A stretch of DNA of 64,000 bases from a virus (lineage: Duplodnaviria; Caudoviricetes), in the IMG/VR virus record IMGVR_UViG_3300023435_000009; one strand, 5' to 3'. Positions 1,358-25,969 of this stretch are shown in pieces (position 1 is the stretch's first letter; every line of letters starts with the position of its first letter). The position numbers and the translations under genes are program-made. The notes beneath the pieces were generated by a model that saw only the letters and a program-made list of their open reading frames with translations, was not told the DNA's origin and did no database searches.

Positions 1358-1756
1358 ATGAAACAGACGACAGCAAGCAGCCAAGCGGCCTGGGCACTCC
1401 TGACTGAGGGTGTGACCAACGCACGGGTAGAGGCCCATCGGTTGCAGCATCTGATAGGTCGGGCTACGGCCCTGGTAGAGGGTTCCGACGAGAAGGAGCA
1501 TCTCTACCAAGTGGCAGGGGACATTATTGTAGCCATGCCACAGAGACTCGACCAACTGCTTCGGGCACTGGACCGTACAGGGTTGGCTCTCTCCAAGATG
1601 GGTGAGGAATTCCTGAGTTCACGATTGCCGCTGTCAGACAAGACAATGGTGGAGGAGGCGGTAGCATCTGCCTTTGGGAAGGGCCAACCCCGCCACTCAG
1701 AGGCCCGACGCCTGGCCCAGAGATACCTCCAGAAGCAAGCGGAGTCCCAGGAGTGA
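1358..1756 (+). CDS. hypothetical protein with C-terminal ARRLAQRYL motif (putative head-internal protein)
   Basis: 132-aa ORF; stop overlaps next start (GTGA); function is inference. Confidence 0.7.
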   Translation: MKQTTASSQAAWALLTEGVTNARVEAHRLQHLIGRATALVEGSDEKEHLYQVAGDIIVAMPQRLDQLLRALDRTGLALSKMGEEFLSSRLPLSDKTMVEEAVASAFGKGQPRHSEARRLAQRYLQKQAESQE

Positions 1757-3843
1757 AACTGAAAGCCGACTCGTTGGTAGCAGGGTACAGGCCCCCGATG
1801 GAGGAGCTTACGGGGTGGAAGACCTTTACTCCGTCCACAGACGGCACCAGGCCGCCCGCTACGTCCCCCAAGGACCAGGCCCTGCCCTCACCCCCCAACA
1901 GTCGGAGTAAGCCCATAGGGAAGCCCTCCCTCAACGCACCACCCTCTTCTGAGGATGCACTCGATGGAAGGCCCTTGCACACGGACCGAGTTCGGACTTT
2001 GGCTATCCCAGGTGAGTACAGCCCTCATCCGAACCCTGAACCTCGGACGACGCCTGTCCGGCGACAGAATCTGGCAGCGAGAAGGAAGGTGGCTGGGGGC
2101 TATTATGATCTGAAGCCCCAAACACCTGTGTCTGAGGTTCTTAAGCGGTGGGTGGGTGATGGGGCCAAAGCCTACGATGACTCCATGCCTCAGTTCTACT
2201 CCGCTCAGGAGTTGTGGCCCTACCGTGAGTTTACCCGGAAACGGGAGACTGCTCTCAGGGGATTTGCACGTGTCCGTGGGAAGATGGTAGAGCTTCCGGG
2301 GTTTGTCAAATGGGACGTCCTCAAACAGGACATGCAGAAACGAGGGTGGGATCTTAACAGTCCGTTGCTTCTGTTTGTGGGAAGGAACGGGTCGGCCAAG
2401 ATAGGGGAAGGGAACCATCGTCTTGCGATAGCCAAGGAGTTGGGGCTTAAGCGGATCCCTGTGCGGTTCCTATTTGACCAGAGGGTGGTCAAGGAAAAGC
2501 CCCCTACAGTGTCTCCTCAGGCAGTGAAAAAGGTCGTGGAGAAAGAGGTCCAGAAGCCGCTCTCTGATAAAGACCGGGTTCAGATCGAGGGCCTCATGCA
2601 GCAGATGGAGGACATGGGAATCCTGGCTGCAATGAAGGGTCCGACTTTTCCTGGGATGAACAGGCAGCGCAAGCAGTACGGGGACGCCAAGCGTTATCAG
2701 AAGCAGTACTACCTGAAAAACCGGAACAAGATCCATCAGCGAATGACTCGTTGGTACCGAAAGTACAAGTCCAACCCGTTGTTGAAGAGGGACAAAAAAC
2801 GTCGTCAGGATTACCCCAATCGTTTCAAGAGGTTCCCTGGGGGATTCGGGTCCAACAGTGAACGAGGGAAAGACTGGCGGGAGAAGCAGAAGAAGGCAAC
2901 CTGGGAGGTCGGTGTCCCGATCTGGTATCTACCCTGGGATGAAGAGGGTCACTTGATGTCCGTGGACACTGCTACGGGGACAGTGCTGGTACGAACGCCT
3001 AGCGGGTCAGAGACCCTAACCCTTCCCGAGATGTTCGAGTCCATTGTGTTCGAGTCCGAAGAAGACATGGAGAAGGTGTTCGCTTTCCTGGACGAGGCGT
3101 TGGGGTACGCCCCCGGTGAGGACGATCCTGAGGATCCCAACCAGGAGTCGTTGATCGATCAGTGGTACTTTCCTACGGAGAAGCTGGGCTGGTTCATGGA
3201 AAAAGGTCCAGCAGATAGTTCCGTTGAGTACTACAACAGAGGTACGGACAAGAAGCCTGAGGAGCACCAACCTCTGGAGGGCTTTGAGCCGTATGACCAC
3301 CCGGTTATGGACAATCCTGGATCCGCCAAGGTGATACCCTGGAACTCTGATCTGGTCAACAATAAGGCTGCTGCTCGTATCGCTGAGATTCAGGAGGGGT
3401 GTTCCACAAAGCTAATGGAACAGGCCAAGGGTTTGATCCCCCAGAGAGTTCGGTACAGCCCCCGGAACAAGATGTGGTTGTTCGACGTGCCTGGCTCGAA
3501 GGGGGCTTACCGAGTCCGTGTGAAGGTGTTGCCCAAAGGGAACACCACGACCGTCTCCAAGATGGATGTTTTAGTTTCGTGTTCCTGTCCGTATTGGCGG
3601 TGGCAGGGTCCTGAGCACTGGGCGAAGGTAAATGATTACTTGTATGGACGCTCCCAAGGGACAGCAGCCAAACCTTCGATGAAGGATCCTGATGGTACGC
3701 ACAGAGCCTGTAAGCACGTACTTGCTTGTTTTGAAGCAATGAAGAATTATGCGTTAATTAAGCGGCGTAACAAAAAAACAGCGGCAAGGGCCACAGCCAT
3801 TGCCCATCGGTATTTGGGACAGGCAAACTGGAGGCAGTGTTGA
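1753..3843 (+). CDS. multidomain protein with ParB/Srx-like domain and C-terminal SWIM-type zinc finger
   Basis: IGEGNHRLAIAKELGLKRIPV resembles the ParB-N DGxHR motif; SCSCPYW...RACKHVLA fits the SWIM CxC...CxH pattern. Confidence 0.7.
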   Translation: MKLKADSLVAGYRPPMEELTGWKTFTPSTDGTRPPATSPKDQALPSPPNSRSKPIGKPSLNAPPSSEDALDGRPLHTDRVRTLAIPGEYSPHPNPEPRTTPVRRQNLAARRKVAGGYYDLKPQTPVSEVLKRWVGDGAKAYDDSMPQFYSAQELWPYREFTRKRETALRGFARVRGKMVELPGFVKWDVLKQDMQKRGWDLNSPLLLFVGRNGSAKIGEGNHRLAIAKELGLKRIPVRFLFDQRVVKEKPPTVSPQAVKKVVEKEVQKPLSDKDRVQIEGLMQQMEDMGILAAMKGPTFPGMNRQRKQYGDAKRYQKQYYLKNRNKIHQRMTRWYRKYKSNPLLKRDKKRRQDYPNRFKRFPGGFGSNSERGKDWREKQKKATWEVGVPIWYLPWDEEGHLMSVDTATGTVLVRTPSGSETLTLPEMFESIVFESEEDMEKVFAFLDEALGYAPGEDDPEDPNQESLIDQWYFPTEKLGWFMEKGPADSSVEYYNRGTDKKPEEHQPLEGFEPYDHPVMDNPGSAKVIPWNSDLVNNKAAARIAEIQEGCSTKLMEQAKGLIPQRVRYSPRNKMWLFDVPGSKGAYRVRVKVLPKGNTTTVSKMDVLVSCSCPYWRWQGPEHWAKVNDYLYGRSQGTAAKPSMKDPDGTHRACKHVLACFEAMKNYALIKRRNKKTAARATAIAHRYLGQANWRQC

Positions 3844-5065: not shown

Positions 5066-6457
5066 TTGAGAGTCACCCGCATTCTTCAGGCAGATGTCCC
5101 ACCCACCTTGTTGCAGATATGTAAGGTTACAGGGTTTCTTCGTGCAGACATCTGGCGCAGATATGGCGCTCTGAAGAATGTAAGTAAAAGTGCGTTGGAC
5201 ATCCGTAAGGAAATCGTAGCAGGTGGTTTTTACGCCTCTCTCGACGTAGACGGAACCATACGTAATGAAACGACCAAAGACGTCGTGAACGACATCCTAC
5301 TCTATAAAGCAGCGGCAAAGGGAAAGGTTCGCAAAGCAATTGCGCTGCGAACTGACGACAAGACAGAACGTAAACGACTCTACACACTCTTGAAGTCCGA
5401 TAAATGGCTGGAGGATTCCTTTCTCCATCGTCAAATGCGTAAGCATTTCAAGCACGGTGTCTCACACACGAAAAATCAGTTTGTCGTGAGATCCGACCAA
5501 TTCAAAATAAAACACGTTGCTGGTTACCTAACTATCACTATTCGAATCGCTCGTAAATATGGTGACAATATAGTTCTGACGACAACTTCAAATGGTACAA
5601 ACGTAGACCTGAGTGGTTGTAACCTTCGTGTTATTGTGAAGGATGATGTAACTGAAATCCATTACAGTATGGACAAGGGTGAGGGACGTACGCACGGTAG
5701 CCAGACGTTGGGCGTTGATAAGGGCTATACCGAAGCATTCGTTGATTCGGATGGTGAACATCATGGTGAGCAGTTCGGTGCTGTGATGACTGAGTACAGC
5801 GATAAGGTCAGTAAGACTGGTTCAGCTAGGAACAAGTTACATGCTCTGGAGAAAAAACACCGTCAGGGTGGAAACCTCAAAAAAGCTGACAACATCAGGA
5901 CTCACAATCTTGGGCGTAAAAAGATTGATGCCCGCAGGCAACTAGCTCAAACACAACTACGAGGTATTGCCTTCAAGGCTACCCATACCATTGTGGATAA
6001 GGCAGCAGTAGTTGTATCAGAGGATCTAACCTCTCCGATCGCAAAAAAACGACCTTGGAAAAGGTTTAATAGAAGAATGAGTGGCTGGGCAAAGGGAGCA
6101 CTTGCTGAGGCCCTCGATTCGGTTTGTACGCAGCGTGAGGCCAGTCACGAACTGGTCAACTGTGCCTACACATCGCAGATGGACTCTGTAACAGGTTTGC
6201 TGCAAGGTAAACGTGTTGGGGACAAGTTTCACCGTATTAACGGGGATGTTATTCAGGCCGATCACAATGCTGCATTGAACGTGTTAGTCCGGTTGTCTGA
6301 CAAGGACATCGGGCGTTTCACCTCCTATCAAGAGGTGAGGCGCATCTTGTTGGCACGTTCTCCGGCGGAACTGACCGTCAAGAGGCACGAGTTGCAGTCG
6401 AAAGGCTATCAACCGTGTGCGGATAAACCCTCACGATCAGAAGTGATCAACTTCTAA
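5066..6457 (+). CDS. tnpB: IS200/IS605-family TnpB-like RNA-guided nuclease, no adjacent transposase
   Basis: RuvC-I LGVDKG, RuvC-II VVSEDL, VNCAYTSQ, RuvC-III QADHNAALN; TTG start after AAGGAG. Confidence 0.85.
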   Translation: MRVTRILQADVPPTLLQICKVTGFLRADIWRRYGALKNVSKSALDIRKEIVAGGFYASLDVDGTIRNETTKDVVNDILLYKAAAKGKVRKAIALRTDDKTERKRLYTLLKSDKWLEDSFLHRQMRKHFKHGVSHTKNQFVVRSDQFKIKHVAGYLTITIRIARKYGDNIVLTTTSNGTNVDLSGCNLRVIVKDDVTEIHYSMDKGEGRTHGSQTLGVDKGYTEAFVDSDGEHHGEQFGAVMTEYSDKVSKTGSARNKLHALEKKHRQGGNLKKADNIRTHNLGRKKIDARRQLAQTQLRGIAFKATHTIVDKAAVVVSEDLTSPIAKKRPWKRFNRRMSGWAKGALAEALDSVCTQREASHELVNCAYTSQMDSVTGLLQGKRVGDKFHRINGDVIQADHNAALNVLVRLSDKDIGRFTSYQEVRRILLARSPAELTVKRHELQSKGYQPCADKPSRSEVINF

Positions 6458-15365: not shown

Positions 15366-15983
15366 ATGGTACGGAGGCACCCGATGAGTGATCCTATTCT
15401 GTTGTCTGTCCACGGGGAGCGGGGTCCGGTCAAGGACGACTCTTTGGTGTTCACCTTTGAGATACGTCGGGACTCCTACGAGCCCTTCTCGTATGTCTTC
15501 ACGGCTGAGGAGAAGCTGCTCCAGAAGAGGGTCAAGAGCCTCGTCTGGAGGCTGGCAGGCCACGTTATAGAGGTTTGCGACGAGAAGTCACTGGACCTGA
15601 TGCATCCTGGGGATGATGGTGTTGTGGAGCGTGTAGGTAGCGTCGGCACCCAGGTGATGCTGATCTTCTCAGATGCCTCCGAGAGGTTTCAGGCCCTCAA
15701 TGAGGTACTGAACGAAGCTGTTCGTCGTTTGTGGGTGGCTACGGTGGGGTGTGTCTCAGTCTCCGTTTTTGGAGTCACCCCTCAGGTTGCTGCCTTCTGT
15801 CACGGAAACCTTCATGCCACTCTGGAGGAGTCGGGGGAGTACGCCCTGACGGGAGCCTGGGGTCAGCAGTACCTGAAGAACATCGCAGGGGATCATCCTA
15901 GCCAACCTCTGAGTAGATCGTGTAACTGCCCCATGGTGGGTTGCCAACAGCTTCATTTTTCAGGGACATTCCGCCTCCTTTAG
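15366..15983 (+). CDS. hypothetical protein
   Basis: 205-aa ORF; GGAG before 15366 and GGAGG before alternative ATG 15384. Confidence 0.7.
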   Translation: MVRRHPMSDPILLSVHGERGPVKDDSLVFTFEIRRDSYEPFSYVFTAEEKLLQKRVKSLVWRLAGHVIEVCDEKSLDLMHPGDDGVVERVGSVGTQVMLIFSDASERFQALNEVLNEAVRRLWVATVGCVSVSVFGVTPQVAAFCHGNLHATLEESGEYALTGAWGQQYLKNIAGDHPSQPLSRSCNCPMVGCQQLHFSGTFRLL

Positions 15984-16012: not shown

Positions 16013-16041
16013 TTGACACAGTCTTTCCTTTTTTGTATAAT
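16013..16041 (+). promoter_or_regulatory. consensus sigma70 promoter, probably producing a leaderless tnpB mRNA
   Basis: TTGACA (16013-18) - N17 - TATAAT (16036-41); ATG 6 nt downstream with no RBS. Confidence 0.8.
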
Positions 16042-16047
16042 CCAATC

Positions 16048-17280
16048 ATGAAGGTGATTCGCTCCACCAAGTGTACTCTTAAGTTCTCCACAGCAGCTAA
16101 ATTGGCTACCCTGGAGATGGTCCTTGCAGAGTATGGGCAGGTTACCAACTTTTTCATCCAGTACTTATGGGTTCTCCCCAAGGTACCTTCCAAGAGCGCA
16201 CTGCTCAAACCCATCGTAGACCTTCCCAAAACGTGGCTCAGTGCCCGCTTACGTAAAGTAGCCGCTAGGGAAGCTATTTCGATGATTGTTGCCGCAAAGC
16301 GACGATGGAAGGACAAGGCCGTACAACCAACGCATAACGGTAAGTCGATGTACGTTTCATCGACGATTGCTGAGTTGCACGAAGCGCAGGACGCCACGGA
16401 ATTCGATTACTGGCTTAAGTTGTGGTCTATTGGTAGAGGGATTATCTTCCATCTCCCAATCCGACTCCACCAGCATTACCATAAGTTGGCTGCCCGAGGC
16501 AAGCGTCTCAACAGCTATGTTATTACCGCTGAGTCCGTTACCTTTGCTTTTGAAACAGACACTGGCCTTAAACGAACAGAAGGTCATCCACTTGGTGTTG
16601 ATACAGGAATTAAAGCGCTTGCGACCACGTCGGATGGTTTGCAGCTTGGTACCGATATCCAACCAATGATCGAGCGGATTAATCGTTGCAAGCATGGGTC
16701 GAAGGGACAGAAGACTGCCCGCAGGGCCTTGAAACAACGGATGGATGAGGTTGCCAGGGATCTTTTAGAAATTCCTGACATTAAGATAATAGTGGTTGAG
16801 AACCTTCGGGGTCTCAATCACAAGAGTCGTGTCAAACGTCGCTTGACCAAAAATATGCGGCGATCTCTTGGTTCGTGGGCTTATCGTTATTGGTTGGGTC
16901 GGGTTCAGGGTCGTTGCGAGGACAACCGTGTTGTCTTCAAAGCGGTGAACCCAGCGTATACTTCTCAACGATGTCCTGAATGTGGTTACACCGAGAGGGG
17001 GAATCGAAACGGAGAGGTGTTCAAGTGTCGGAAGTGTGGTCACACCGACAACGCAGATGTTAATGCTGCCAGGAACATTTTGACTCGATTTCGCTGGGGA
17101 CCTTACGGTGCCCCATTCAAACCTAGCGTCAAAGTCATGAAAGGGACGGTTGTCCCCGATAGTTTTGTGTTAGGAACGGTACAGTCCCCACATGGCAGGA
17201 TTCGTCTACATTGTTCAGGCCGAGGACACCTATCGTTTCAAGGTGGGTCAAACGGTGAATCTTCCTCAGCGGATGCGTAA
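16048..17280 (+). CDS. tnpB: IS200/IS605-family TnpB RNA-guided nuclease, no adjacent transposase
   Basis: LGVDTG, IVVENL, YTSQRCPECG...CRKCG...NADVNAARNI; catalytic D/E/D and zinc finger all present. Confidence 0.9.
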   Translation: MKVIRSTKCTLKFSTAAKLATLEMVLAEYGQVTNFFIQYLWVLPKVPSKSALLKPIVDLPKTWLSARLRKVAAREAISMIVAAKRRWKDKAVQPTHNGKSMYVSSTIAELHEAQDATEFDYWLKLWSIGRGIIFHLPIRLHQHYHKLAARGKRLNSYVITAESVTFAFETDTGLKRTEGHPLGVDTGIKALATTSDGLQLGTDIQPMIERINRCKHGSKGQKTARRALKQRMDEVARDLLEIPDIKIIVVENLRGLNHKSRVKRRLTKNMRRSLGSWAYRYWLGRVQGRCEDNRVVFKAVNPAYTSQRCPECGYTERGNRNGEVFKCRKCGHTDNADVNAARNILTRFRWGPYGAPFKPSVKVMKGTVVPDSFVLGTVQSPHGRIRLHCSGRGHLSFQGGSNGESSSADA

Positions 17281-20696: not shown

Positions 20697-22340
20697 ATGA
20701 GTACCCGAATGGCCACGGAGTTCCCCTCAGAAGAGGCCCTGAAGAAGTACCTTAAGGAACATCCTAAGGCTGACCCGAAAAAGCACTCGGTGGCGGAATC
20801 TGGTGGGGAGTCCGAAAAGAAGGAACCGGAGGGGAAACAGCCCCAGAAGAGATACAGGTACCCTAGTGCCCTGATGAGTAAAGGTAACCTTTATTTCACT
20901 GACGCCGATGAGGTCGAGGCGTTTGCCAAGAAGACTAAATCCCTGTCGGGAGATAAGCAGACAGATGCCCAGGTCATGAAGAAGTTTTTGGCTGGGGCCT
21001 CACCAGGGACTAAAAAGAAAGTGGAGACTATGACTCCTGCTGAGTTCATGGGGCTTGTCAAAGCTCTTTTGGAGAATAAGGGGTTTAAGGATTCCCCCAT
21101 GTATAAGTCCCCGGCAGCGAAGCCTGATGCGAAGGAGCCAAAGAAAAAGGAGCCAAAGAAAAAGGAGCCAAAGAAAAAGGAGCAGACTGCCCCTAGTGGT
21201 TCACTGCCCTCTCCTGAGGCTTTGCGGATGAAGTCGTTCAAAGTTCCAGAGAAGCTTTCGCAGGCAGCCGTAGATAACCCTGTTGATATGCTGAAGTATC
21301 TGAGTAAGAAGGAAGGCAAAGACGATCTTCCCATTTGGGATGTTCCGAAGAAGTTTGCTGACGCTTTCCTTGCCGTTTTAGATGGGGCACCGGACGATGC
21401 TGCTAAGAAGAAAGCGGTCTTTAAGGTGGTGGAAAAGGCCACGCCACTTCAACTTGAATGGATCTGGTCCGAACTAGGATCTTGGAACTACGAGGGTCTG
21501 GCATCGGAACTAGCACATCGTTATGATGTGGGTCGTGATGGGGACTTGGAGCTTGCTGCTGTAGAGTACCTCCGAACATATAACGAAAAGATGCTTAAGA
21601 CTCTGGACCGGGGTTTTCACGCCGGAGACTGGGGGGCAGAAGCTAAAAAGAACCCTCGTTGGTGGAATGACTACGGTATCGAATGGGACATGGGAAAAAA
21701 GAAGAAGGCTATGGCCAACTCAGCAACAAGGATTGCTGCCCGTTACCTCGACATGGTGGCCTGCGATTGCGGTGACGAACTGTTCGCCGGGCGTGAGCAC
21801 GGTGAGGGGGGCAAGGGCTACGGTGAGTCTGGTCCCGATGTCCGAGGTCCCGGTAAGTGGCAACCCAAGCCGAAGGGTAAGTGCTACTACGAGACCGGCG
21901 ACGAGAAGGACCGCTGTTACGTTACGCAACATGGTGGCCCAGGCGGGCAGAAAAAGCCCGGCCCTGCTACGAAGCCTGGCGACTGGAAGACCTACGAGAA
22001 GCAGCGTTGGAAGGGGGCTGCTCTGTCACACCCCGAGGACGAAGAGGGGGCGCTGAAGGCGCTGAAGGTCTTCGCTAAGAAGGCTGAGTTGCCTTTCGCC
22101 ATCCAGGGTATAGAGAACCGGGAGTATCCGGTGAAGAGCCCCAAGGGGTTTGGGTCCCTGTTCGATAAGCTCTACATCAGCGTGGAGTGGTGGCAACCCT
22201 CATGGTGTAAGATTCAGTGGGGCTACACCCACCCCTCTGGTGGTTCCAACGGGTTGAACATTGGATCTGTCGGATGGGATGTTGATAAGGAGAAGTGGTA
22301 CTGGAAGTTGGATACCGGCAAGTACGGTTGGATCAACTAG
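20697..22340 (+). CDS. Lys-rich multi-module protein (putative head-internal protein)
   Basis: GGAGG before ATG 20697; contains ATRIAARYL and EPKKK repeats; function is inference. Confidence 0.7.
   Translation: MSTRMATEFPSEEALKKYLKEHPKADPKKHSVAESGGESEKKEPEGKQPQKRYRYPSALMSKGNLYFTDADEVEAFAKKTKSLSGDKQTDAQVMKKFLAGASPGTKKKVETMTPAEFMGLVKALLENKGFKDSPMYKSPAAKPDAKEPKKKEPKKKEPKKKEQTAPSGSLPSPEALRMKSFKVPEKLSQAAVDNPVDMLKYLSKKEGKDDLPIWDVPKKFADAFLAVLDGAPDDAAKKKAVFKVVEKATPLQLEWIWSELGSWNYEGLASELAHRYDVGRDGDLELAAVEYLRTYNEKMLKTLDRGFHAGDWGAEAKKNPRWWNDYGIEWDMGKKKKAMANSATRIAARYLDMVACDCGDELFAGREHGEGGKGYGESGPDVRGPGKWQPKPKGKCYYETGDEKDRCYVTQHGGPGGQKKPGPATKPGDWKTYEKQRWKGAALSHPEDEEGALKALKVFAKKAELPFAIQGIENREYPVKSPKGFGSLFDKLYISVEWWQPSWCKIQWGYTHPSGGSNGLNIGSVGWDVDKEKWYWKLDTGKYGWIN
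21132..21183 (+). repeat. 15-bp in-frame tandem repeat, about 3.5 copies (KEPKK)
   Basis: AAGGAGCCAAAGAAA repeated perfectly. Confidence 0.9.
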
Positions 22341-22843
22341 GTTCTTTGTGCCTCCAGCACGTCCAGCACCATCCCTAACGCCTCCTCCACGATCTGCTGT
22401 TTGGCCTTTGTCCGAGACAGCTTGGCGTCTACGTACACGAAGCAGGTGATCGCTTTGTTCCCCAGTGCCGCCACACCTATGTAGGCGATTCCCACATCTG
22501 AGCGGGGGTTGGCGGGGTCTTCCCGTGACAGGGTGCCTGTGACACCCACCCCGATGTCAGCCATTTCCGCCCCCATTTCCGCCAAGTCGGCGGCGATTTC
22601 GGGGCTGTAGACACCGTGACTTTGAATGAGTCGGGCGACGTGTCCCTCACGACCCAGGCGGTGATCCAGACGTTCCTTGGCTGCGTTGCCGTAGACCACG
22701 GAACCCTCCCGGAAAACCTCGCTGGCTCCGGGGATATTCGTGATGGCAGATGCCAGCGCTCCGCCTGTACAGGACTCCACTGTGTAGATGTGGACCCCCA
22801 TTTTGTCGAGTTCGGCTACCAGTTTCTCCGCAATGTCAGTCAT
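22337..22843 (-). CDS. pncC: CinA C-terminal domain / PncC-like NMN deamidase
   Basis: VESCTGG, ITNIPGASEVF, VYGNAAK, GVYS, GVTG motifs; AAGGAG RBS. Confidence 0.85.
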   Translation of the reverse strand: MTDIAEKLVAELDKMGVHIYTVESCTGGALASAITNIPGASEVFREGSVVYGNAAKERLDHRLGREGHVARLIQSHGVYSPEIAADLAEMGAEMADIGVGVTGTLSREDPANPRSDVGIAYIGVAALGNKAITCFVYVDAKLSRTKAKQQIVEEALGMVLDVLEAQRT

Positions 22844-22858
22844 GGTAATCTCCTTCCC

Positions 22859-23035
22859 TTACCAGGAGGCAGCGACCTGCATCATCAGGCCCGATCCGAG
22901 GATCGCTTCGCCCCAGAAAACAGGCCAGCCGTTGTTGGCCGCTTTTACCTTGATGCAGTTGTTGTCCCATTCCGGGTAGGACTTGGAACTCGCCATGAGC
23001 GCCTTGACACCTTCCACCGTGGTCAAATCGGACAT
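22859..23035 (-). CDS. 58-aa small protein missing from the ORF track
   Basis: AGGAGGT then 4 nt then ATG; MSDLTTVEGVKALMASSKSYPEWDNNCIKVKAANNGWPVFWGEAILGSGLMMQVAASW-TAA; next RBS follows the stop directly. Confidence 0.75.
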   Translation of the reverse strand: MSDLTTVEGVKALMASSKSYPEWDNNCIKVKAANNGWPVFWGEAILGSGLMMQVAASW

Positions 23036-23055
23036 TGGTCACCTCCTACAAGGGT

Positions 23056-23081
23056 CTACTCCAACAGCGCCGGAGATGATC
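23056..23081 (-). promoter_or_regulatory. GATCATC-N13-GAGTAG motif, copy 3
   Basis: Minus strand reads GATCATC tccggcgctgttg GAGTAG ACC, then RBS and ATG 23035. Confidence 0.7.
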
Positions 23082-23125
23082 CCGTTGGGTTCTCGTTGGG
23101 GTAGACGGGGGTATGCCTGACAGGG

Positions 23126-23151
23126 GATCATCCTACCGATCCGCTGAGTAG
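23126..23151 (+). promoter_or_regulatory. GATCATC-N13-GAGTAG motif, copy 4 (divergent from copy 3)
   Basis: GATCATC ctaccgatccgct GAGTAG, then AGGAGG and ATG 23172. Confidence 0.7.
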
Positions 23152-23171
23152 TTGTGGTGTAGGAGGACAAG

Positions 23172-23363
23172 ATGAGCGACGTCACTTTCAAGCCAGGGGA
23201 CAGCGTGATCGTTGCCCACCCTGTTTCCGCAATGGAGCGGGGTCTTTTGGGTGTGACCTTCACCGTGAAACGGCTGGCCCTGACACCATCCCTCAGAGTT
23301 GTCTGTAAGGACGACTGGGGCTCCTGGCACATCCATCCTGAGGCTTTGGAACATGTCTCGTAG
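23172..23363 (+). CDS. small hypothetical protein (possibly SH3-like)
   Basis: 63 aa; AGGAGG RBS. Confidence 0.7.
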   Translation: MSDVTFKPGDSVIVAHPVSAMERGLLGVTFTVKRLALTPSLRVVCKDDWGSWHIHPEALEHVS

Positions 23364-23790
23364 GGTTGCTAACAGTAGGTCAAAACAGCCTTTTAATGAG
23401 GACACCAGTCGGGAAGGGACTCAAAAGTCCTTGACTTGGTCATCCCTCATTCCTATCGTATTTAGCGTAAAGGTGATAGCCAAGCTCTTCAAACTGTTCT
23501 TTGGGATTTTGGATTTGGTGGTTGGTGAGGAAAGACCTCACCGTAAAATCCAAATCGTTGAAGAACTTAGCAGTCTTAACGATTGTGAATGACCGGGAGT
23601 TCCTCGGTTACAGCCTGCTGTCCTGGAAGCTCTGGCTTGATTCATTTGAATCAAGTGAAACTACTGGTTGGGCAGGAACCTAACTTCAATCAAGGCTTGT
23701 CCTCGATTGAGTCAGTTTAGGAGAACGGACTCTAAGCGACTGACCATCATCCGTGCAGCTTTACAAAGCGGGCGGTAACTCCCGCCGGGT
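23364..23790 (+). ncRNA. candidate large structured non-coding RNA (about 430 nt), family unassigned
   Basis: No RBS-supported ORF; at least eight complementary segment pairs; G-T wobble pairs favour the + strand. Confidence 0.6.
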
Positions 23791-23903
23791 CGGGTCTGCT
23801 ATATCACCATCAGACATAACGCCATAGTCTGACACACCGTGTGACATCCTGTCTGATCCGTTTTGCCGCCTATACGATCACCCTGATGACACTGGAGTCG
23901 CTA

Positions 23904-24125
23904 ATGGATAAGACCACAGGTACCACCCGGATTTACGAGTACATCGCAGATGACGGAACCATCTACTGGTCCTTGAAAAAGAGCGCCCAGATAGTATCAC
24001 CCCCGACCCGCCTTCTCCTCCAGGAGAAGAAGGGGACGATAGTGGGGCAGTTTATTGCCCAACTTCGGATACGTGCCTTGGCGCTACAAAAGCCCAATGG
24101 GAGTGGCAGTACAACGGTACAGTAG
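23904..24125 (+). CDS. hypothetical protein
   Basis: GGAG before ATG 23904; in frame with track ORF 23841. Confidence 0.65.
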   Translation: MDKTTGTTRIYEYIADDGTIYWSLKKSAQIVSPPTRLLLQEKKGTIVGQFIAQLRIRALALQKPNGSGSTTVQ

Positions 24126-24153
24126 CGGAAGGTTTTAACCGGAGGAGCAAGGA

Positions 24154-24546
24154 ATGAAAGACAACGACTTGAAAGTGGTGGATGACAAGGGGACCGAAGA
24201 GGTCACCCCCGAGATTGCAATGGTGGAGACCCTGGAGGATCCTCCTGAGGTGGCCGGGGAGGCCCCGCAGGATCCTGACATCGCTGGTGTGTTGACCCCC
24301 GAGGAGCAGAGTCAGTTGCAGATGCTCCGCCAGAAGGGTGGTCAGCTTACGATGGAGATCGGCCAACTGGAGCTTCGGAAGGCCCGTGTCCTGGGGACCA
24401 TCTCGGACGTCGAGGCCCAGGGGCAGAATCTGCTGAAAGTCGCTGCGAAGCGGATGGGGATCCCTGATGGGCAGCCCTGGCAGGTGCTCCCGGACGGCAG
24501 GGCACGGCTCGTGACGCAAACGCCAGAGGGGATGCCCCAGGGCTAA
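24154..24546 (+). CDS. acidic / coiled-coil hypothetical protein
   Basis: 130 aa; GGAGGAG and AAGGA upstream. Confidence 0.75.
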   Translation: MKDNDLKVVDDKGTEEVTPEIAMVETLEDPPEVAGEAPQDPDIAGVLTPEEQSQLQMLRQKGGQLTMEIGQLELRKARVLGTISDVEAQGQNLLKVAAKRMGIPDGQPWQVLPDGRARLVTQTPEGMPQG

Positions 24547-24556
24547 AGGATGAAGT

Positions 24557-25969
24557 ATGGCTCACGGATGGGATCCAGACCCCACAGCGCAACCAATACC
24601 GCCGCAGAACGGTCAGGTTATTACGCCGTTCGAGCGGGGGGTGTTGGATGTGCGGTGGGACAATCCAGCGCTGCTGGCGGGGAACACCCTGTACACAGTG
24701 ATTGGGGTGAATGTCTATCGGTCTGATGTTTCCGACCGTGGCCCCTACTTCCGAGTCAACGAATACCCCATTGGTGGTGCCTATTTTCGGGACAGGACGG
24801 AGAACGTCTTCATCTCCCGTGAGCCGGTACTGTGGAACCAGTCCTGGTTGTTCAAGGGGAACGCCCCAAACGACCGTCGATGGGTGTTAAAAACTCACAG
24901 CCCTATCGCCAAGAAGATCCCTCAGGGTCCATTCCAAACGGCAACGGCAGCCAACGCCCCTTCGGACGTGACAGTCTATGTGGATGGGGTTGAAGTTCCT
25001 GTTGATGACGTGTTTGGTCCCTCTGGGGAGGTGACTCTCATCAACCAGGCCACCTTCGATTCGTTGACGGAGAAGAACGAGACGGCGATCCTCCCATCTG
25101 AGACTAGCGTCGTGGAAATCTCCTACTGGGTAACCAGGAACCACGTCCGGTCAGGTCTGGATGCCAATCTTTTCTATCGATTGACGACGGTGGTTTTGGA
25201 TGCCACCACGCCCAGCGGATACAAGGAGACGGCCCTTTCCTATTGTCCAGCGCTGACCCTCAACGATGTAGAGACCATGGACTACATCTGGCGGGAAGCC
25301 GTCAGGCGGAATCACTGGATTCTGCAACAGGGTGGGGAGCGGGTGAAACTGTTTATCCGGCGACAGTCTGGTGTGCCCTGTTCTTGTGAGTTGGACGACC
25401 GCATGAGGGAATACTCGAAGCAGCCCTCCAACCGTTGCACAATCTGCTACGGGACAGGTTTCATCGGGGGTTATGAAGGACCATACTCGATCATCATCGT
25501 CCCTGATGATGCGGAACGACGGATCTCCCAACTGGCTCAGGGGCGACGTAAAGAACACACCTACGAGATCTGGACGGGACCGTCTCCCGTCGTGACCCAG
25601 CGGGACTTTATAGCCAAGCAGACTAACGAGCGTTATTCTGTGGGTCCGGTACGTCGGCCCTCTAACAGGGGTAACAGGCTCCAACAACATTTCAACATCG
25701 CCTACTTCGATGAGCAGGACATTCGGTACTCTGTGCCTATTGATGGGACAGCATCCTTCCCGTGGCCCGAGACCCGTTATGGTCAACTCTCTTACCCGCC
25801 GATGCCAGTGGACGGCGAGTTGAAGCCTCCGCAGTGGGCACAGCCTGATATACCCCCGTACCCTGAGGGAGAGAGTGCCCAGATCCCGATGGAAACGGAG
25901 AAGGATAGTACCCCGAACGAGAAGGAACAGCGAGGCCGCACTCCGGTCTGGGAAAACACTTCGTACTAA
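24557..25969 (+). CDS. putative neck / head-closure protein with Cys-rich motif
   Basis: PCSC...RCTICYGTGFIGGY followed by a beta-rich domain; position before tail genes; function is inference. Confidence 0.55.
   Translation: MAHGWDPDPTAQPIPPQNGQVITPFERGVLDVRWDNPALLAGNTLYTVIGVNVYRSDVSDRGPYFRVNEYPIGGAYFRDRTENVFISREPVLWNQSWLFKGNAPNDRRWVLKTHSPIAKKIPQGPFQTATAANAPSDVTVYVDGVEVPVDDVFGPSGEVTLINQATFDSLTEKNETAILPSETSVVEISYWVTRNHVRSGLDANLFYRLTTVVLDATTPSGYKETALSYCPALTLNDVETMDYIWREAVRRNHWILQQGGERVKLFIRRQSGVPCSCELDDRMREYSKQPSNRCTICYGTGFIGGYEGPYSIIIVPDDAERRISQLAQGRRKEHTYEIWTGPSPVVTQRDFIAKQTNERYSVGPVRRPSNRGNRLQQHFNIAYFDEQDIRYSVPIDGTASFPWPETRYGQLSYPPMPVDGELKPPQWAQPDIPPYPEGESAQIPMETEKDSTPNEKEQRGRTPVWENTSY

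What the first reader, a model, noticed from the sequence alone, without database searches (positions are those of the whole stretch)
23364..23790. About 430-nt gene-free, densely base-paired region: candidate new large phage ncRNA
This is the longest intergenic stretch in the window, it is visibly AT-richer than neighbouring genes, and it is tiled by complementary segments. These are: AATGAGG (23395-401) / CCTCATT (23445-51), enclosing GGACT-CAAA-AGTCC (23417-30); GTTCTT (23496-501) / AAGAAC (23561-66), enclosing GATTTGG (23512-18) / CCAAATC (23550-56) and GGTGAGG / CCTCACC (23524-42); a competing GGATTTT (23504-10) / AAAATCC (23545-51) register; CCTGC (23614-18) / GCAGG (23672-76), enclosing CTTGATTCA-TT-TGAATCAAG (23636-55); AATCAAGG / CCTCGATT; GTCAGT (23711-16) / ACTGAC (23739-44); and GCGGG / CCCGC (23768-85). 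G-T wobble pairs favour the + strand. I could not assign it to tRNA, tmRNA, RNase P or a group I/II intron. Large ornate RNAs (GOLLD, ROOL) are known from phages, so this may be a new class, possibly transcribed from the GATCATC promoter at 23126.
Basis: partly seen in the sequence, partly recalled or inferred. Interest (0 to 1): 0.8.

Follow-up and report, generated by a model that had tools for sequence, protein, structure and literature searches.

The report
Orphan TnpB guide RNA mini-transposon
The "gene-free, densely paired" stretch is a roughly 370-base protein-less remnant of an IS607-type transposon in a salt-lake phage that still carries an intact guide RNA (omegaRNA) for a TnpB nuclease, so it is a real RNA gene of an already known kind rather than a new class of large RNA.

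Summary
The stretch is non-coding-looking, 45% G+C against 57% for the window, and all listed hairpins are at the stated coordinates. It folds better than shuffles on both strands (z -3.9 and -4.9).

The interpretation as a new large RNA class does not hold.
- Window 23586-23728 (+) is the scaffold of a TnpB omegaRNA (reRNA). A covariance model built only from 19 homologous 3' ends of tnpB genes in other metagenomes hits it at 130.5 bits, E 4e-29, full length, with every pair canonical.
- On 27 distinct sequences the structure is 95.6% paired, and 21 of 32 pairs show compensatory changes.
- The family travels with serine-recombinase tnpA, so it is IS607-type. Its conservation stops exactly after GGAGAACGG (23720-23728), so the guide starts at 23729.
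- No tnpB lies next to it, and no cognate tnpB or tnpA is in the 64 kb.
- Contigs from the same salt-lake metagenomes match from about 23357 and up to exactly 23728, with other flanks. The roughly 370-nt unit is therefore multi-copy and MITE-like.

The 5' 220 nt, with two long hairpins, remain unexplained. Protein-less IS derivatives that carry omegaRNAs are already described. Unchecked notes of this scan report other miniatures in the same genome. This is a new member of a known kind.

The parts
23126..23151 (+). Promoter-like motif GATCATC-N13-GAGTAG upstream of the 63-aa ORF. It is a possible source of read-through transcripts into the element. It is context, not part of the element.
   Evidence: A 31-nt repeat with 15886-15916 at 87% identity. 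GGGGATCATCCTA occurs exactly twice in the window. Function was not tested.
23172..23363 (+). 63-aa ORF of unknown function. Its stop codon TAG (23361-23363) sits at the left junction of the element.
   Evidence: no Pfam match; no PHROG match. Also called as a gene in strain variant L205.
23357..23380 (+). Left junction and left end: CTCGTA-GGG-TTGCTAACAGTAGG. The boundary is ambiguous between 23357 and 23365. The GG(G) at 23363-23365 is the likely IS607 core dinucleotide and part of a G-rich TAM.
   Evidence: Contigs in three runs match from 23357 onward with a different sequence before it (table 7). 23364-23378 resembles the left end GGGTTGACAACTGTA of the L002/L067 IS by eye in 12 of 15 bases, but local alignment of the whole 5' module against the left ends is not above shuffles. 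The GG core and G-rich TAMs of IS607 come from 10.1101/2023.11.20.567912 and PMC11061315.
23364..23585 (+). 5' module of the mini-element. It holds hairpin A (23395-23451, enclosing 23417-23430) and the long hairpin B (23496-23566). Its role is unknown. It stands where tnpA/tnpB would be in a full element.
   Evidence: Fold z -2.4 (+) and -3.7 (-). No tnpA or tnpB remnant. No DNA homologue in 200 loci or in the phage records. Another copy keeps 23464-23640 but has 23394-23463 diverged.
23586..23728 (+). omegaRNA scaffold.
- P1: 23592-23597 with 23603-23608, loop AGUUC.
- P2 outer: 23614-23619 with 23671-23676.
- P2 middle: 23623-23626 with 23664-23667, and 23628-23629 with 23661-23662.
- P2c hairpin: 23635-23643 with 23648-23656.
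- P3 closing helix: 23679-23683 with 23717-23721.
- P3 inner hairpin: 23687-23695 with 23701-23709.
- 3' tail: AGAACGG.
- Candidate pseudoknot: 23599-23602 with 23723-23726.
   Evidence: Model R1, built without the window, gives 130.5 bits, E 4.4e-29, model positions 1-143 of 143, with no non-canonical pair. The pseudoknot is 91% paired but has only one pair with a compensatory change.
23589..23720 (+). Vestigial reading frame of the TnpB C-terminal tail (MTGSSSVTACCPGSSG...). It is kept because the RNA sequence is kept. It is not a gene.
   Evidence: tblastn gives 62-66% identity to the last roughly 40 residues of family TnpBs, E 7e-7 to 4e-9. No Pfam match.
23720..23728 (+). Right end of the element, GGAGAACGG. 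Its final GG is the core dinucleotide.
   Evidence: Near-identical IS copies (L002, L039, L057, L067, L070; L053, L083, L102) diverge right after this motif. In the salt-lake runs at least three different sequences follow 23728 (table 7; L206).
23729..23748 (+). Predicted guide, ACTCTAAGCGACTGACCATC. A length of 16-20 nt is assumed.
   Evidence: This is an inference from the rule that the TnpB guide is the flank just beyond the right end (PMC8612924; 10.1101/2023.11.20.567912). There is no second match in the window or in viral contigs.

Best explanation
The stretch holds a protein-less, non-autonomous derivative of an IS607-type TnpB transposon, a miniature comparable to a MITE or PATE. It spans about 23357/23364 to 23728 and sits at the stop codon of a small phage gene.

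Its 3' 143 nt (23586-23728, + strand) are a complete omegaRNA scaffold. The next 16-20 nt (from 23729) are the guide.

Shown:
- homology and covarying structure shared with omegaRNAs that end tnpB genes elsewhere;
- the exact right end;
- absence of tnpB and tnpA beside it;
- further copies with other flanks in the same metagenomes.

Inferred:
- The RNA is transcribed on the + strand, by read-through from the 63-aa gene or from a promoter inside the element.
- It is bound in trans by a cognate TnpB encoded elsewhere in this TnpB-rich phage or in its host.
- It directs cleavage of copies of this site that lack the element (G-rich TAM within TCGTAGG, then ACTCTAAGCG...), so that recombination repair re-installs the element.
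- Movement to new sites would need a serine-recombinase TnpA in trans.

The 5' 220 nt, with two long hairpins, are the left end plus sequence of unknown role.
For: (1) A blastn match of 23590-23688 to a 485-kb uncultured phage falls on the 3' end of a gene with Pfam OrfB_IS605 (2e-25) and Cas12f1-like_TNB (2e-22).

(2) A pattern scan found about 22 distinct relatives. Nearly all lie directly after the TnpB motif DRDLNAAxNLK. L002 and L058 have a Resolvase-domain tnpA upstream.

(3) The model built without the window scores it at 130.5 bits, E 4e-29, within the range of tnpB-linked members (86-150 bits).

(4) Covariation: 95.6% of cells are paired, against 80.3% in shuffles and 26-49% in slid registers. 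21 of 32 pairs and 133 cells carry double changes, and 0 of 500 shuffles reach this.

(5) The right end is defined by copies that diverge after GGAGAACGG. The same holds for the window's own element in the salt-lake runs, where at least three different sequences follow 23728 and a different left flank precedes 23357.

(6) No tnpB or tnpA remnant is present in 23364-23588.

(7) Other tnpB-less copies of the same RNA family exist: L022, L096, and the 196-nt mini in L053/L083.

(8) The literature describes protein-less IS elements that encode omegaRNAs for use in trans (10.1101/2023.03.14.532601). It also gives the IS607 rules: a GG core, G-rich TAMs, and a scaffold that ends ...CGG (10.1101/2023.11.20.567912; PMC11061315).
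Against: - No cognate TnpB or TnpA_S is in the 64-kb window. The two TnpB-like ORFs present are only 24% identical to the family (16033-17280) or barely alignable to it (5066-6457). Use in trans is therefore unproven.
- Expression is unknown.
- The similarity of the left end to family left ends is weak and not above shuffles.
- The left boundary is ambiguous by 7 nt. A boundary at 23357 would lack the GG expected for IS607.
- Two related phages carry other cargo at this slot, so no clean empty site was found.
- Some short metagenome contigs that define the other copies could be chimeric across the repeat.
- The element is not more conserved than its surroundings between two strains.
Confidence: 0.8

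Rival explanations
1. Dead relic. An IS607/TnpB element suffered an internal deletion. The surviving right end is no longer transcribed or used, and it looks intact only because the deletion is recent.
For: No nuclease or transposase lies beside it or in the window. It is no more conserved than its neighbourhood between two strains. All three substitutions seen in the 5' module are unconstrained as protein, and one breaks hairpin A.
Against: The scaffold has no broken pair and scores like tnpB-linked members. The deletion breakpoint spares the whole scaffold, here and in the independent orphan L096. The unit is present at several sites with different flanks. The variant L206 shows a whole-helix compensatory swap, CUGG/CUGG to GAGGA/UCCUC, which points to continued structural constraint in close relatives.
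Confidence: 0.15
2. One reading: the whole roughly 430 nt is one new large structured phage RNA (GOLLD/ROOL-like), unrelated to known classes.
For: The fold is significantly better than shuffles. No Rfam family matched. The 5' hairpins are unexplained.
Against: The 3' third is a member of the TnpB omegaRNA class by homology, covariation and linkage to tnpB. The 5' part has no homologues in about 200 loci or in the phage records. It is partly replaced in another copy. The minus strand folds as well or better, as expected of DNA palindromes.
Confidence: 0.03
3. Mini-IStron. The 5' module is a reduced group I intron fused to the omegaRNA, as in IS607 IStrons, and it splices the element out of the mRNA.
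For: Another reader of this scan saw group-I-like elements in the same stretch. IS607 IStrons exist, and their splice sites coincide with the transposon ends (10.1101/2023.11.20.567912). The element ends in G.
Against: No match to Rfam group I intron models even at E 10. The 5' module is only about 220 nt and consists of two simple hairpins, whereas the Clostridium mini-IStron construct used 581 bp of the left end, where the intron lies (same paper). The element sits at or after a stop codon, so splicing would restore nothing.
Confidence: 0.02
4. The 5' module encodes a small 79-aa protein (23353-23592) with a hydrophobic middle, so the region is not gene-free.
For: An ORF with an ATG and a GAGG 9 nt upstream is present. 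Gene callers call it on two ENA contigs.
Against: The only homologues among 5.8 billion proteins are two near-identical copies of the same locus. There is no Pfam or PHROG match. All three substitutions seen are non-synonymous. It has low G+C, unlike the phage genes, and it coincides with long hairpins.
Confidence: 0.07

Closest known systems
TnpB omegaRNA / reRNA of IS200/IS605 and IS607 elements (Karvelis 2021, PMC8612924; Altae-Tran 2021, cited from memory)
   Same: In the relatives, the structured scaffold is encoded at the 3' end of tnpB and runs to the transposon's right end. The guide is the flank just outside. The strand is that of tnpB. The layout has several stem-loops and a candidate pseudoknot next to the guide.
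   Different: Here no tnpB precedes it. The scaffold family is not in Rfam 15.
RAGATH-18-derived reRNA of IS607 TnpB (Ren 2024, PMC11061315)
   Same: It is an IS607-type system with serine-recombinase tnpA and a G-rich TAM. In that study 36% of RAGATH-18 RNAs were not next to a TnpB, so orphan copies are common.
   Different: There was no hit to RAGATH-18 even at E 10. In this family the scaffold overlaps the last roughly 40 codons of tnpB, whereas the RAGATH-18 reRNA is reported to be independent of the coding sequence.
CboIStron IS607 omegaRNA and TnpA_S rules (Zedaveinyte 2023, 10.1101/2023.11.20.567912)
   Same: The scaffold ends in ...CGG (here AACGG, there UCGG). A GG dinucleotide sits at the junctions. 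The sequence before the left end is G-rich (here TAGGG, there TGGG). There are no inverted repeats and no target duplication. Short ends suffice for excision, so a mini-element could in principle be mobilised.
   Different: No group I intron was detected here, and there are no protein genes. The TAM of this family has not been measured.
PATE-like protein-less IS200/IS605 derivatives that encode omegaRNAs (Meers 2023, 10.1101/2023.03.14.532601)
   Same: It is a miniature element with a left end and a right end and no gene. It carries an omegaRNA that could be used only by a TnpB encoded elsewhere.
   Different: Those elements are IS605-type, with Y1 transposase, palindromic ends and T/A-rich TAMs, and they lie in a bacterial chromosome. 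This one is IS607-type and lies in a large phage genome.

Membership tests
TnpB omegaRNA (reRNA) | Sequence and secondary-structure homology to RNAs encoded at the 3' end of tnpB genes | tested here: met
   Model R1 was built from 19 tnpB-linked or related sequences without the window. It gives 130.5 bits, E 4e-29, full length. The homologues lie after ORFs with OrfB_IS605 and Cas12f1-like_TNB domains.
TnpB omegaRNA (reRNA) | Structure maintained by compensatory changes | tested here: met
   95.6% of cells paired, 21 of 32 pairs with double changes, 0 of 500 shuffles as high, slid registers 26-49%. The alignment was fitted to the model. The independent MAFFT alignment gives 88.9% against 78.5%.
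TnpB omegaRNA (reRNA) | Encoded within, or directly downstream of, a tnpB gene on the same strand | tested here: not met
   There is no TnpB-like coding sequence in 23364-23588. Only the last roughly 40 codons survive as RNA sequence. It is therefore filed as an orphan copy.
TnpB omegaRNA (reRNA) | The scaffold ends at the transposon's right end and the guide is the adjacent flank | tested here: met
   Conservation stops after GGAGAACGG in all family members and in the window's other copies.
TnpB omegaRNA (reRNA) | Transcribed, processed and bound by TnpB; guides TAM-dependent DNA cleavage | not testable with these tools
   This needs RNA-seq or Northern blotting, and co-expression with a cognate TnpB.
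IS607-family element (non-autonomous derivative) | Relatives carry a serine-recombinase TnpA next to tnpB | tested here: met
   L002 12976-13560 and L058 2804-3379 have the Pfam Resolvase N-terminal domain, 7e-18 and 5e-19.
IS607-family element (non-autonomous derivative) | GG core dinucleotide at both junctions, no inverted repeats, no target-site duplication | tested here: inconclusive
   The right junction is ...AACGG|A. The left junction has GGG at 23363-23365, but other copies also share the 6-7 nt before it, from 23357. No duplication of the flank was seen.
IS607-family element (non-autonomous derivative) | Several copies with the same ends in different flanks | tested here: met
   Contigs of four salt-lake or marine runs show one alternative left flank and at least three alternative right flanks. 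L206 has a different right flank. Caveat: these are short metagenome contigs.
IS607-family element (non-autonomous derivative) | Left end homologous to that of autonomous family members | tested here: inconclusive
   GGGTTGCTAACAGTA against GGGTTGACAACTGTA gives 12 of 15 by eye, but local alignment scores are not above shuffles.
Group I intron / IStron | Conserved P3-P9 catalytic core detectable by covariance model | tested here: not met
   No Rfam group I hit at E up to 10 in 23000-24100.
RAGATH-18 (Rfam) | Match to the Rfam covariance model | tested here: not met
   No hit at the gathering score over the window or at E up to 10 over 23000-24100.

The most novel reading that the evidence does not exclude
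Guide-only mini-elements like this one are not debris. They would be a working layer of a phage-borne OMEGA system: free-standing guides that borrow TnpB nucleases encoded elsewhere in the same huge phage. Each guide would drive homing of its own insertion, and of linked accessory genes, into co-infecting relatives that lack it. Together the guides would act as a dispersed, CRISPR-array-like repertoire in competition between phages. The mosaic L206 variant, with the same left half but a swapped scaffold helix and a different flank, would then reflect exchange of scaffold and guide modules between such elements.
Probability: 0.12. Interest if true: 0.75.

Novelty: new member of a known kind. 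Interest (0 to 1): 0.35.

Why it matters
The result turns an apparent new large phage RNA into something specific and testable: an orphan TnpB guide RNA on a miniature IS607-type element in a large salt-lake phage.

It adds an omegaRNA scaffold family with a well-supported secondary structure that Rfam 15 does not contain. It also shows that this family repeatedly gives rise to tnpB-less copies: the window, L022, L096, and the L053/L083 mini.

If the RNA is used in trans, it shows how guides can spread independently of their nuclease inside phage genomes. That bears on how TnpB systems persist, and on how multi-guide arrangements such as CRISPR arrays could begin.

For annotation, similar AT-rich hairpin-rich gaps in large phages should be screened for omegaRNAs before they are called new RNAs.

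Tried and rejected
- **Rfam and tRNA.** Rfam gave nothing at gathering scores over the whole window. At E up to 10 over 23000-24100 it gave only microRNA or sRNA noise of 15-18 bits. ARAGORN found no tRNA or tmRNA.
- **Own genome.** No whole genome is held for this window.
- **Homologues of the 5' module (23300-23600) and of the right flank.** Nothing was found in the phage records, in about 200 fetched loci, or within the window. Exact scans of viral contigs for the apex of hairpin B, for the left end and for the guide gave 0 hits.
- **Left-end similarity.** Smith-Waterman alignment of the 5' module against the left ends of L058, L086, L004 and L002 was not above shuffles.
- **tnpA and tnpB remnants.** tblastn with family TnpA and TnpB found only the tail at 23589-23708.
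- **Empty site.** Related phages L203 (80% aa identity in the 470-aa neighbour) and L204 have no omegaRNA. They carry different cargo between the CinA gene and the 73-aa gene, so no clean empty site could be read. The 63-aa ORF has no relatives in viral contigs.
- **Expression.** No RNA holder was listed for this stretch.
- **Strain comparison.** The element has 3 differences in 365 nt against L205, but divergence is patchy and 33% of windows are as low, so this is no evidence of selection.
- **The 79-aa ORF.** There is no Pfam or PHROG match, and the only homologues are near-identical.
- **Pseudoknot.** The pairing of the P1 loop with the 3' tail is 91% paired but has only one covarying pair, and both of its sequences come from one phage. 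It is kept as a candidate only.
- **Resident TnpB-like ORFs as partners.** ORFs 16033-17280 and 5066-6457 were rejected: the first is 24% identical to the family over the alignable part and the second is barely alignable, and no R1 hit lies at their 3' ends.

Full report
**Observation**

The stretch between the 63-aa ORF (23172-23363) and the next gene is real and unusual.

G+C is 45.2% for 23364-23728 against 56.8% for the window. Only 0.7% of equally long windows are as low, and the only other such place lies inside another TnpB-like gene.

The 437 nt fold better than dinucleotide shuffles on both strands, with z -3.86 (+) and -4.89 (-). By parts:
- 5' 222 nt: z -2.4 (+) and -3.7 (-)
- 23586-23748: z -2.3
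- flank 23749-23905: z +0.2

Homology with a related phage puts the start of the downstream gene at ATG 23904, so the gap is about 540 nt. Rfam and ARAGORN gave nothing.

**What the 3' part is**

A blastn search of phage records gave one significant match. Window 23590-23688 matches a 485-kb uncultured phage at 75.8% identity, E 4e-10. In that record the match lies on the last codons of an ORF with Pfam OrfB_IS605 (2e-25) and Cas12f1-like_TNB (2e-22), which is a TnpB. That position is where TnpB elements encode their guide RNA (omegaRNA or reRNA; PMC8612924).

I scanned the public collections for the 20-mer shared by both sequences. After filtering with a second conserved block, this gave about 22 distinct relatives. 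Nearly all follow the TnpB motif DRDLNAAxNLK directly. Two of them (L002, L058) carry a Resolvase-domain tnpA upstream of tnpB, so the family is IS607-type.

I built a covariance model from 19 of these sequences, leaving the window out. Its hand-drawn structure has these elements:
- P1 hairpin
- long-range P2, which encloses a variable hairpin
- P3 closing helix

The model hits window 23586-23728 on the + strand only, at 130.5 bits, E 4.4e-29. The hit is full length with no non-canonical pair. This lies inside the range of tnpB-linked members, 86-150 bits.

On the structural alignment of 27 distinct sequences, 95.6% of cells pair, against 80.3% in shuffles and 26-49% in slid registers. 21 of 32 pairs show compensatory changes, and 0 of 500 shuffles reach this. 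The untuned MAFFT alignment gives the same direction, 88.9% against 78.5%.

A pseudoknot between the P1 loop (GUUC) and the 3' tail (GAAC) is possible. It is 91% paired, and GUUA/UAAC occurs in two sequences, but it rests on one covarying pair only.

**Boundaries**

Near-identical IS copies in different contigs diverge immediately after GGAGAACGG. That motif is the right end. In the window it is 23720-23728, so the guide begins at 23729 (ACTCTAAGCGACTGACC...).

This fits published IS607 rules (10.1101/2023.11.20.567912; PMC11061315):
- the scaffold ends in ...CGG;
- a GG core dinucleotide sits at the junctions;
- TAMs are G-rich (TGGG, AGGAG, GAGGG);
- there are no inverted repeats and no target duplication.

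The guide has no other match in the window or in viral contigs.

**No nuclease beside it**

Upstream of 23589 there is no TnpB or TnpA coding remnant. Only the last roughly 40 codons of tnpB survive, as a vestigial 43-aa frame at 23589-23720, and they survive because they are the RNA.

The window has two other TnpB-like ORFs. ORF 16033-17280 has a TNB domain (3e-18) and is 24% identical to the family. ORF 5066-6457 is barely alignable to the family. Neither carries this scaffold. The RNA is therefore an orphan.

Orphans recur in this family:
- L022.
- L096, which lies about 195 nt downstream of tRNA-Ala in a tRNA cluster.
- A 196-nt mini with two or more flanks in L053/L083.

**A mobile miniature**

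The window comes from a phage found in many salt-lake metagenome runs. I laid the contigs of four runs on 22300-24600.
- Contigs in three runs match from 23357 onward and have a different sequence before that point.
- Contigs match up to exactly 23728 and are then followed by at least three different sequences.
- One alternative copy keeps 23357-23393 and 23464-23640 but has 23394-23463, which is hairpin A, replaced by unlike sequence of the same length.

The unit from about 23357/23364 to 23728 (365-372 nt) is therefore multi-copy. The 5' module and the omegaRNA travel together.

The start GGGTTGCTAACAGTA resembles the left end GGGTTGACAACTGTA of the L002/L067 IS by eye, but not significantly. 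The left boundary is uncertain by 7 nt. A GG core would place it at 23363-23365, yet two copies also share the preceding CTCGTA. Either way the stop codon of the 63-aa ORF is preserved.

Contig L206 has the same left half but a variant scaffold. In it the CUGG/CUGG helix is replaced by GAGGA/UCCUC, the P2c hairpin carries compensatory changes, and the right flank is different. This shows structural constraint among close relatives, although a chimeric assembly cannot be excluded.

**The 5' module (23364-23585)**

It has two strong hairpins, but I found no homologues and no Rfam match, including group I introns.

A 79-aa ORF (23353-23592) is called by gene finders, but nothing supports it as coding:
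- its only homologues are near-identical copies of the same locus;
- it has no Pfam or PHROG match;
- all three substitutions seen are non-synonymous.

I regard the module as the left end plus sequence of unknown role. It might hold a promoter: a 9-of-12 sigma-70-like site lies at 23431-23459, which is no more than expected by chance.

**Context**

Two related phages carry different cargo at this slot and have no omegaRNA, so no clean empty site was found. A strain variant (L205, 96.8% identical) has the element with 3 differences. Divergence along the region is patchy, so this says nothing about selection.

**Mechanism proposed**

Shown:
- an intact omegaRNA scaffold with its guide;
- an IS607-type lineage;
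- loss of tnpB and tnpA;
- multiple copies.

Inferred:
- The RNA is made on the + strand, by read-through from the 63-aa gene (promoter-like motif at 23126-23151) or from within the element.
- It is loaded by a cognate TnpB made elsewhere.
- It guides cleavage of element-free copies of this site, so that recombination restores the element. This is the homing and retention role shown for IS605 and IS607 TnpB (10.1101/2023.03.14.532601; 10.1101/2023.11.20.567912).
- Transposition would need TnpA_S in trans.

Protein-less IS derivatives that encode omegaRNAs for use in trans have been described for IS605 (10.1101/2023.03.14.532601). In addition, 36% of RAGATH-18 reRNAs are not next to a TnpB (PMC11061315). 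The kind is therefore known.

Unchecked notes of this scan report many TnpB and IscB elements and other miniatures elsewhere in the same genome. That makes a partner nuclease plausible, but I could not test it.

**Verdict**

This is a new member of a known kind, and its interest is moderate to low.

Noticed in passing
window 16033-17280 (+), right end about 17163-17172: A full TnpB-like gene (415 aa, Cas12f1-like_TNB 3e-18) with lower G+C than the phage. It is preceded at 15886-15916 by the same promoter-like motif as 23121-23151. Its 3' region ends in TTAGGAACGG, 19 nt before the ATG of a T5orf172-like gene. It is a different family from the orphan RNA (24% identity, no R1 hit).
   Followed up: partly
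window 5066-6457 (+): A 463-aa ORF in the most AT-rich part of the window. It has a sub-threshold Cas12f1-like_TNB match (21.9 bits, cutoff 26.3), so it is probably a very divergent TnpB-like protein.
   Followed up: partly
L206 1-568 (ENA contig), against window 23222-23728: The sequence is identical to the window up to 23617 except for one base. Then the omegaRNA core differs by a whole-helix compensatory swap (CUGG/CUGG to GAGGA/UCCUC). The P2c hairpin carries paired changes, and a different sequence follows GGAGAACGG. This is either recombination between two scaffold lineages or a chimeric assembly.
   Followed up: partly
L096 1270-1387 (-) and tRNA genes 1583-2104 (-): Another tnpB-less copy of the same omegaRNA family lies about 195 nt downstream of a tRNA-Glu/Gln/Ala cluster, in the same orientation. 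It has a shortened P2c hairpin.
   Followed up: partly
L053 4621-4766 and 5040-5235; L083 (two copies): A full tnpB element is followed about 300 nt later by a 196-nt mini copy, which holds the last roughly 45 nt of tnpB plus the omegaRNA. The mini has different left flanks in two contigs, so it is an independent miniature of the same family.
   Followed up: partly
L001 895-2331 and 2424-3134 (LR745208.1, 485-kb phage): Two unrelated TnpB genes lie head to tail. The second is N-terminally truncated (236 aa), as if one element had inserted into or beside another. The same phage has a second, full copy of the family next to a terminase-like gene (L004 1984-3285).
   Followed up: no
window 22852-23919, against L203 3592-4326 and L204: The slot between the CinA/PncC-like gene and the 73-aa gene holds different cargo in each related phage. 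L203 has a 193-aa ORF there. It is a variable accessory hot spot.
   Followed up: partly
window 23739-23744 with 23711-23716: The predicted guide (its positions 11-16) can pair with the scaffold tail GUCAGU, and the minimum-free-energy fold uses this pairing. The guide is not conserved in the family, so this is probably chance, although it could mask the guide.
   Followed up: no
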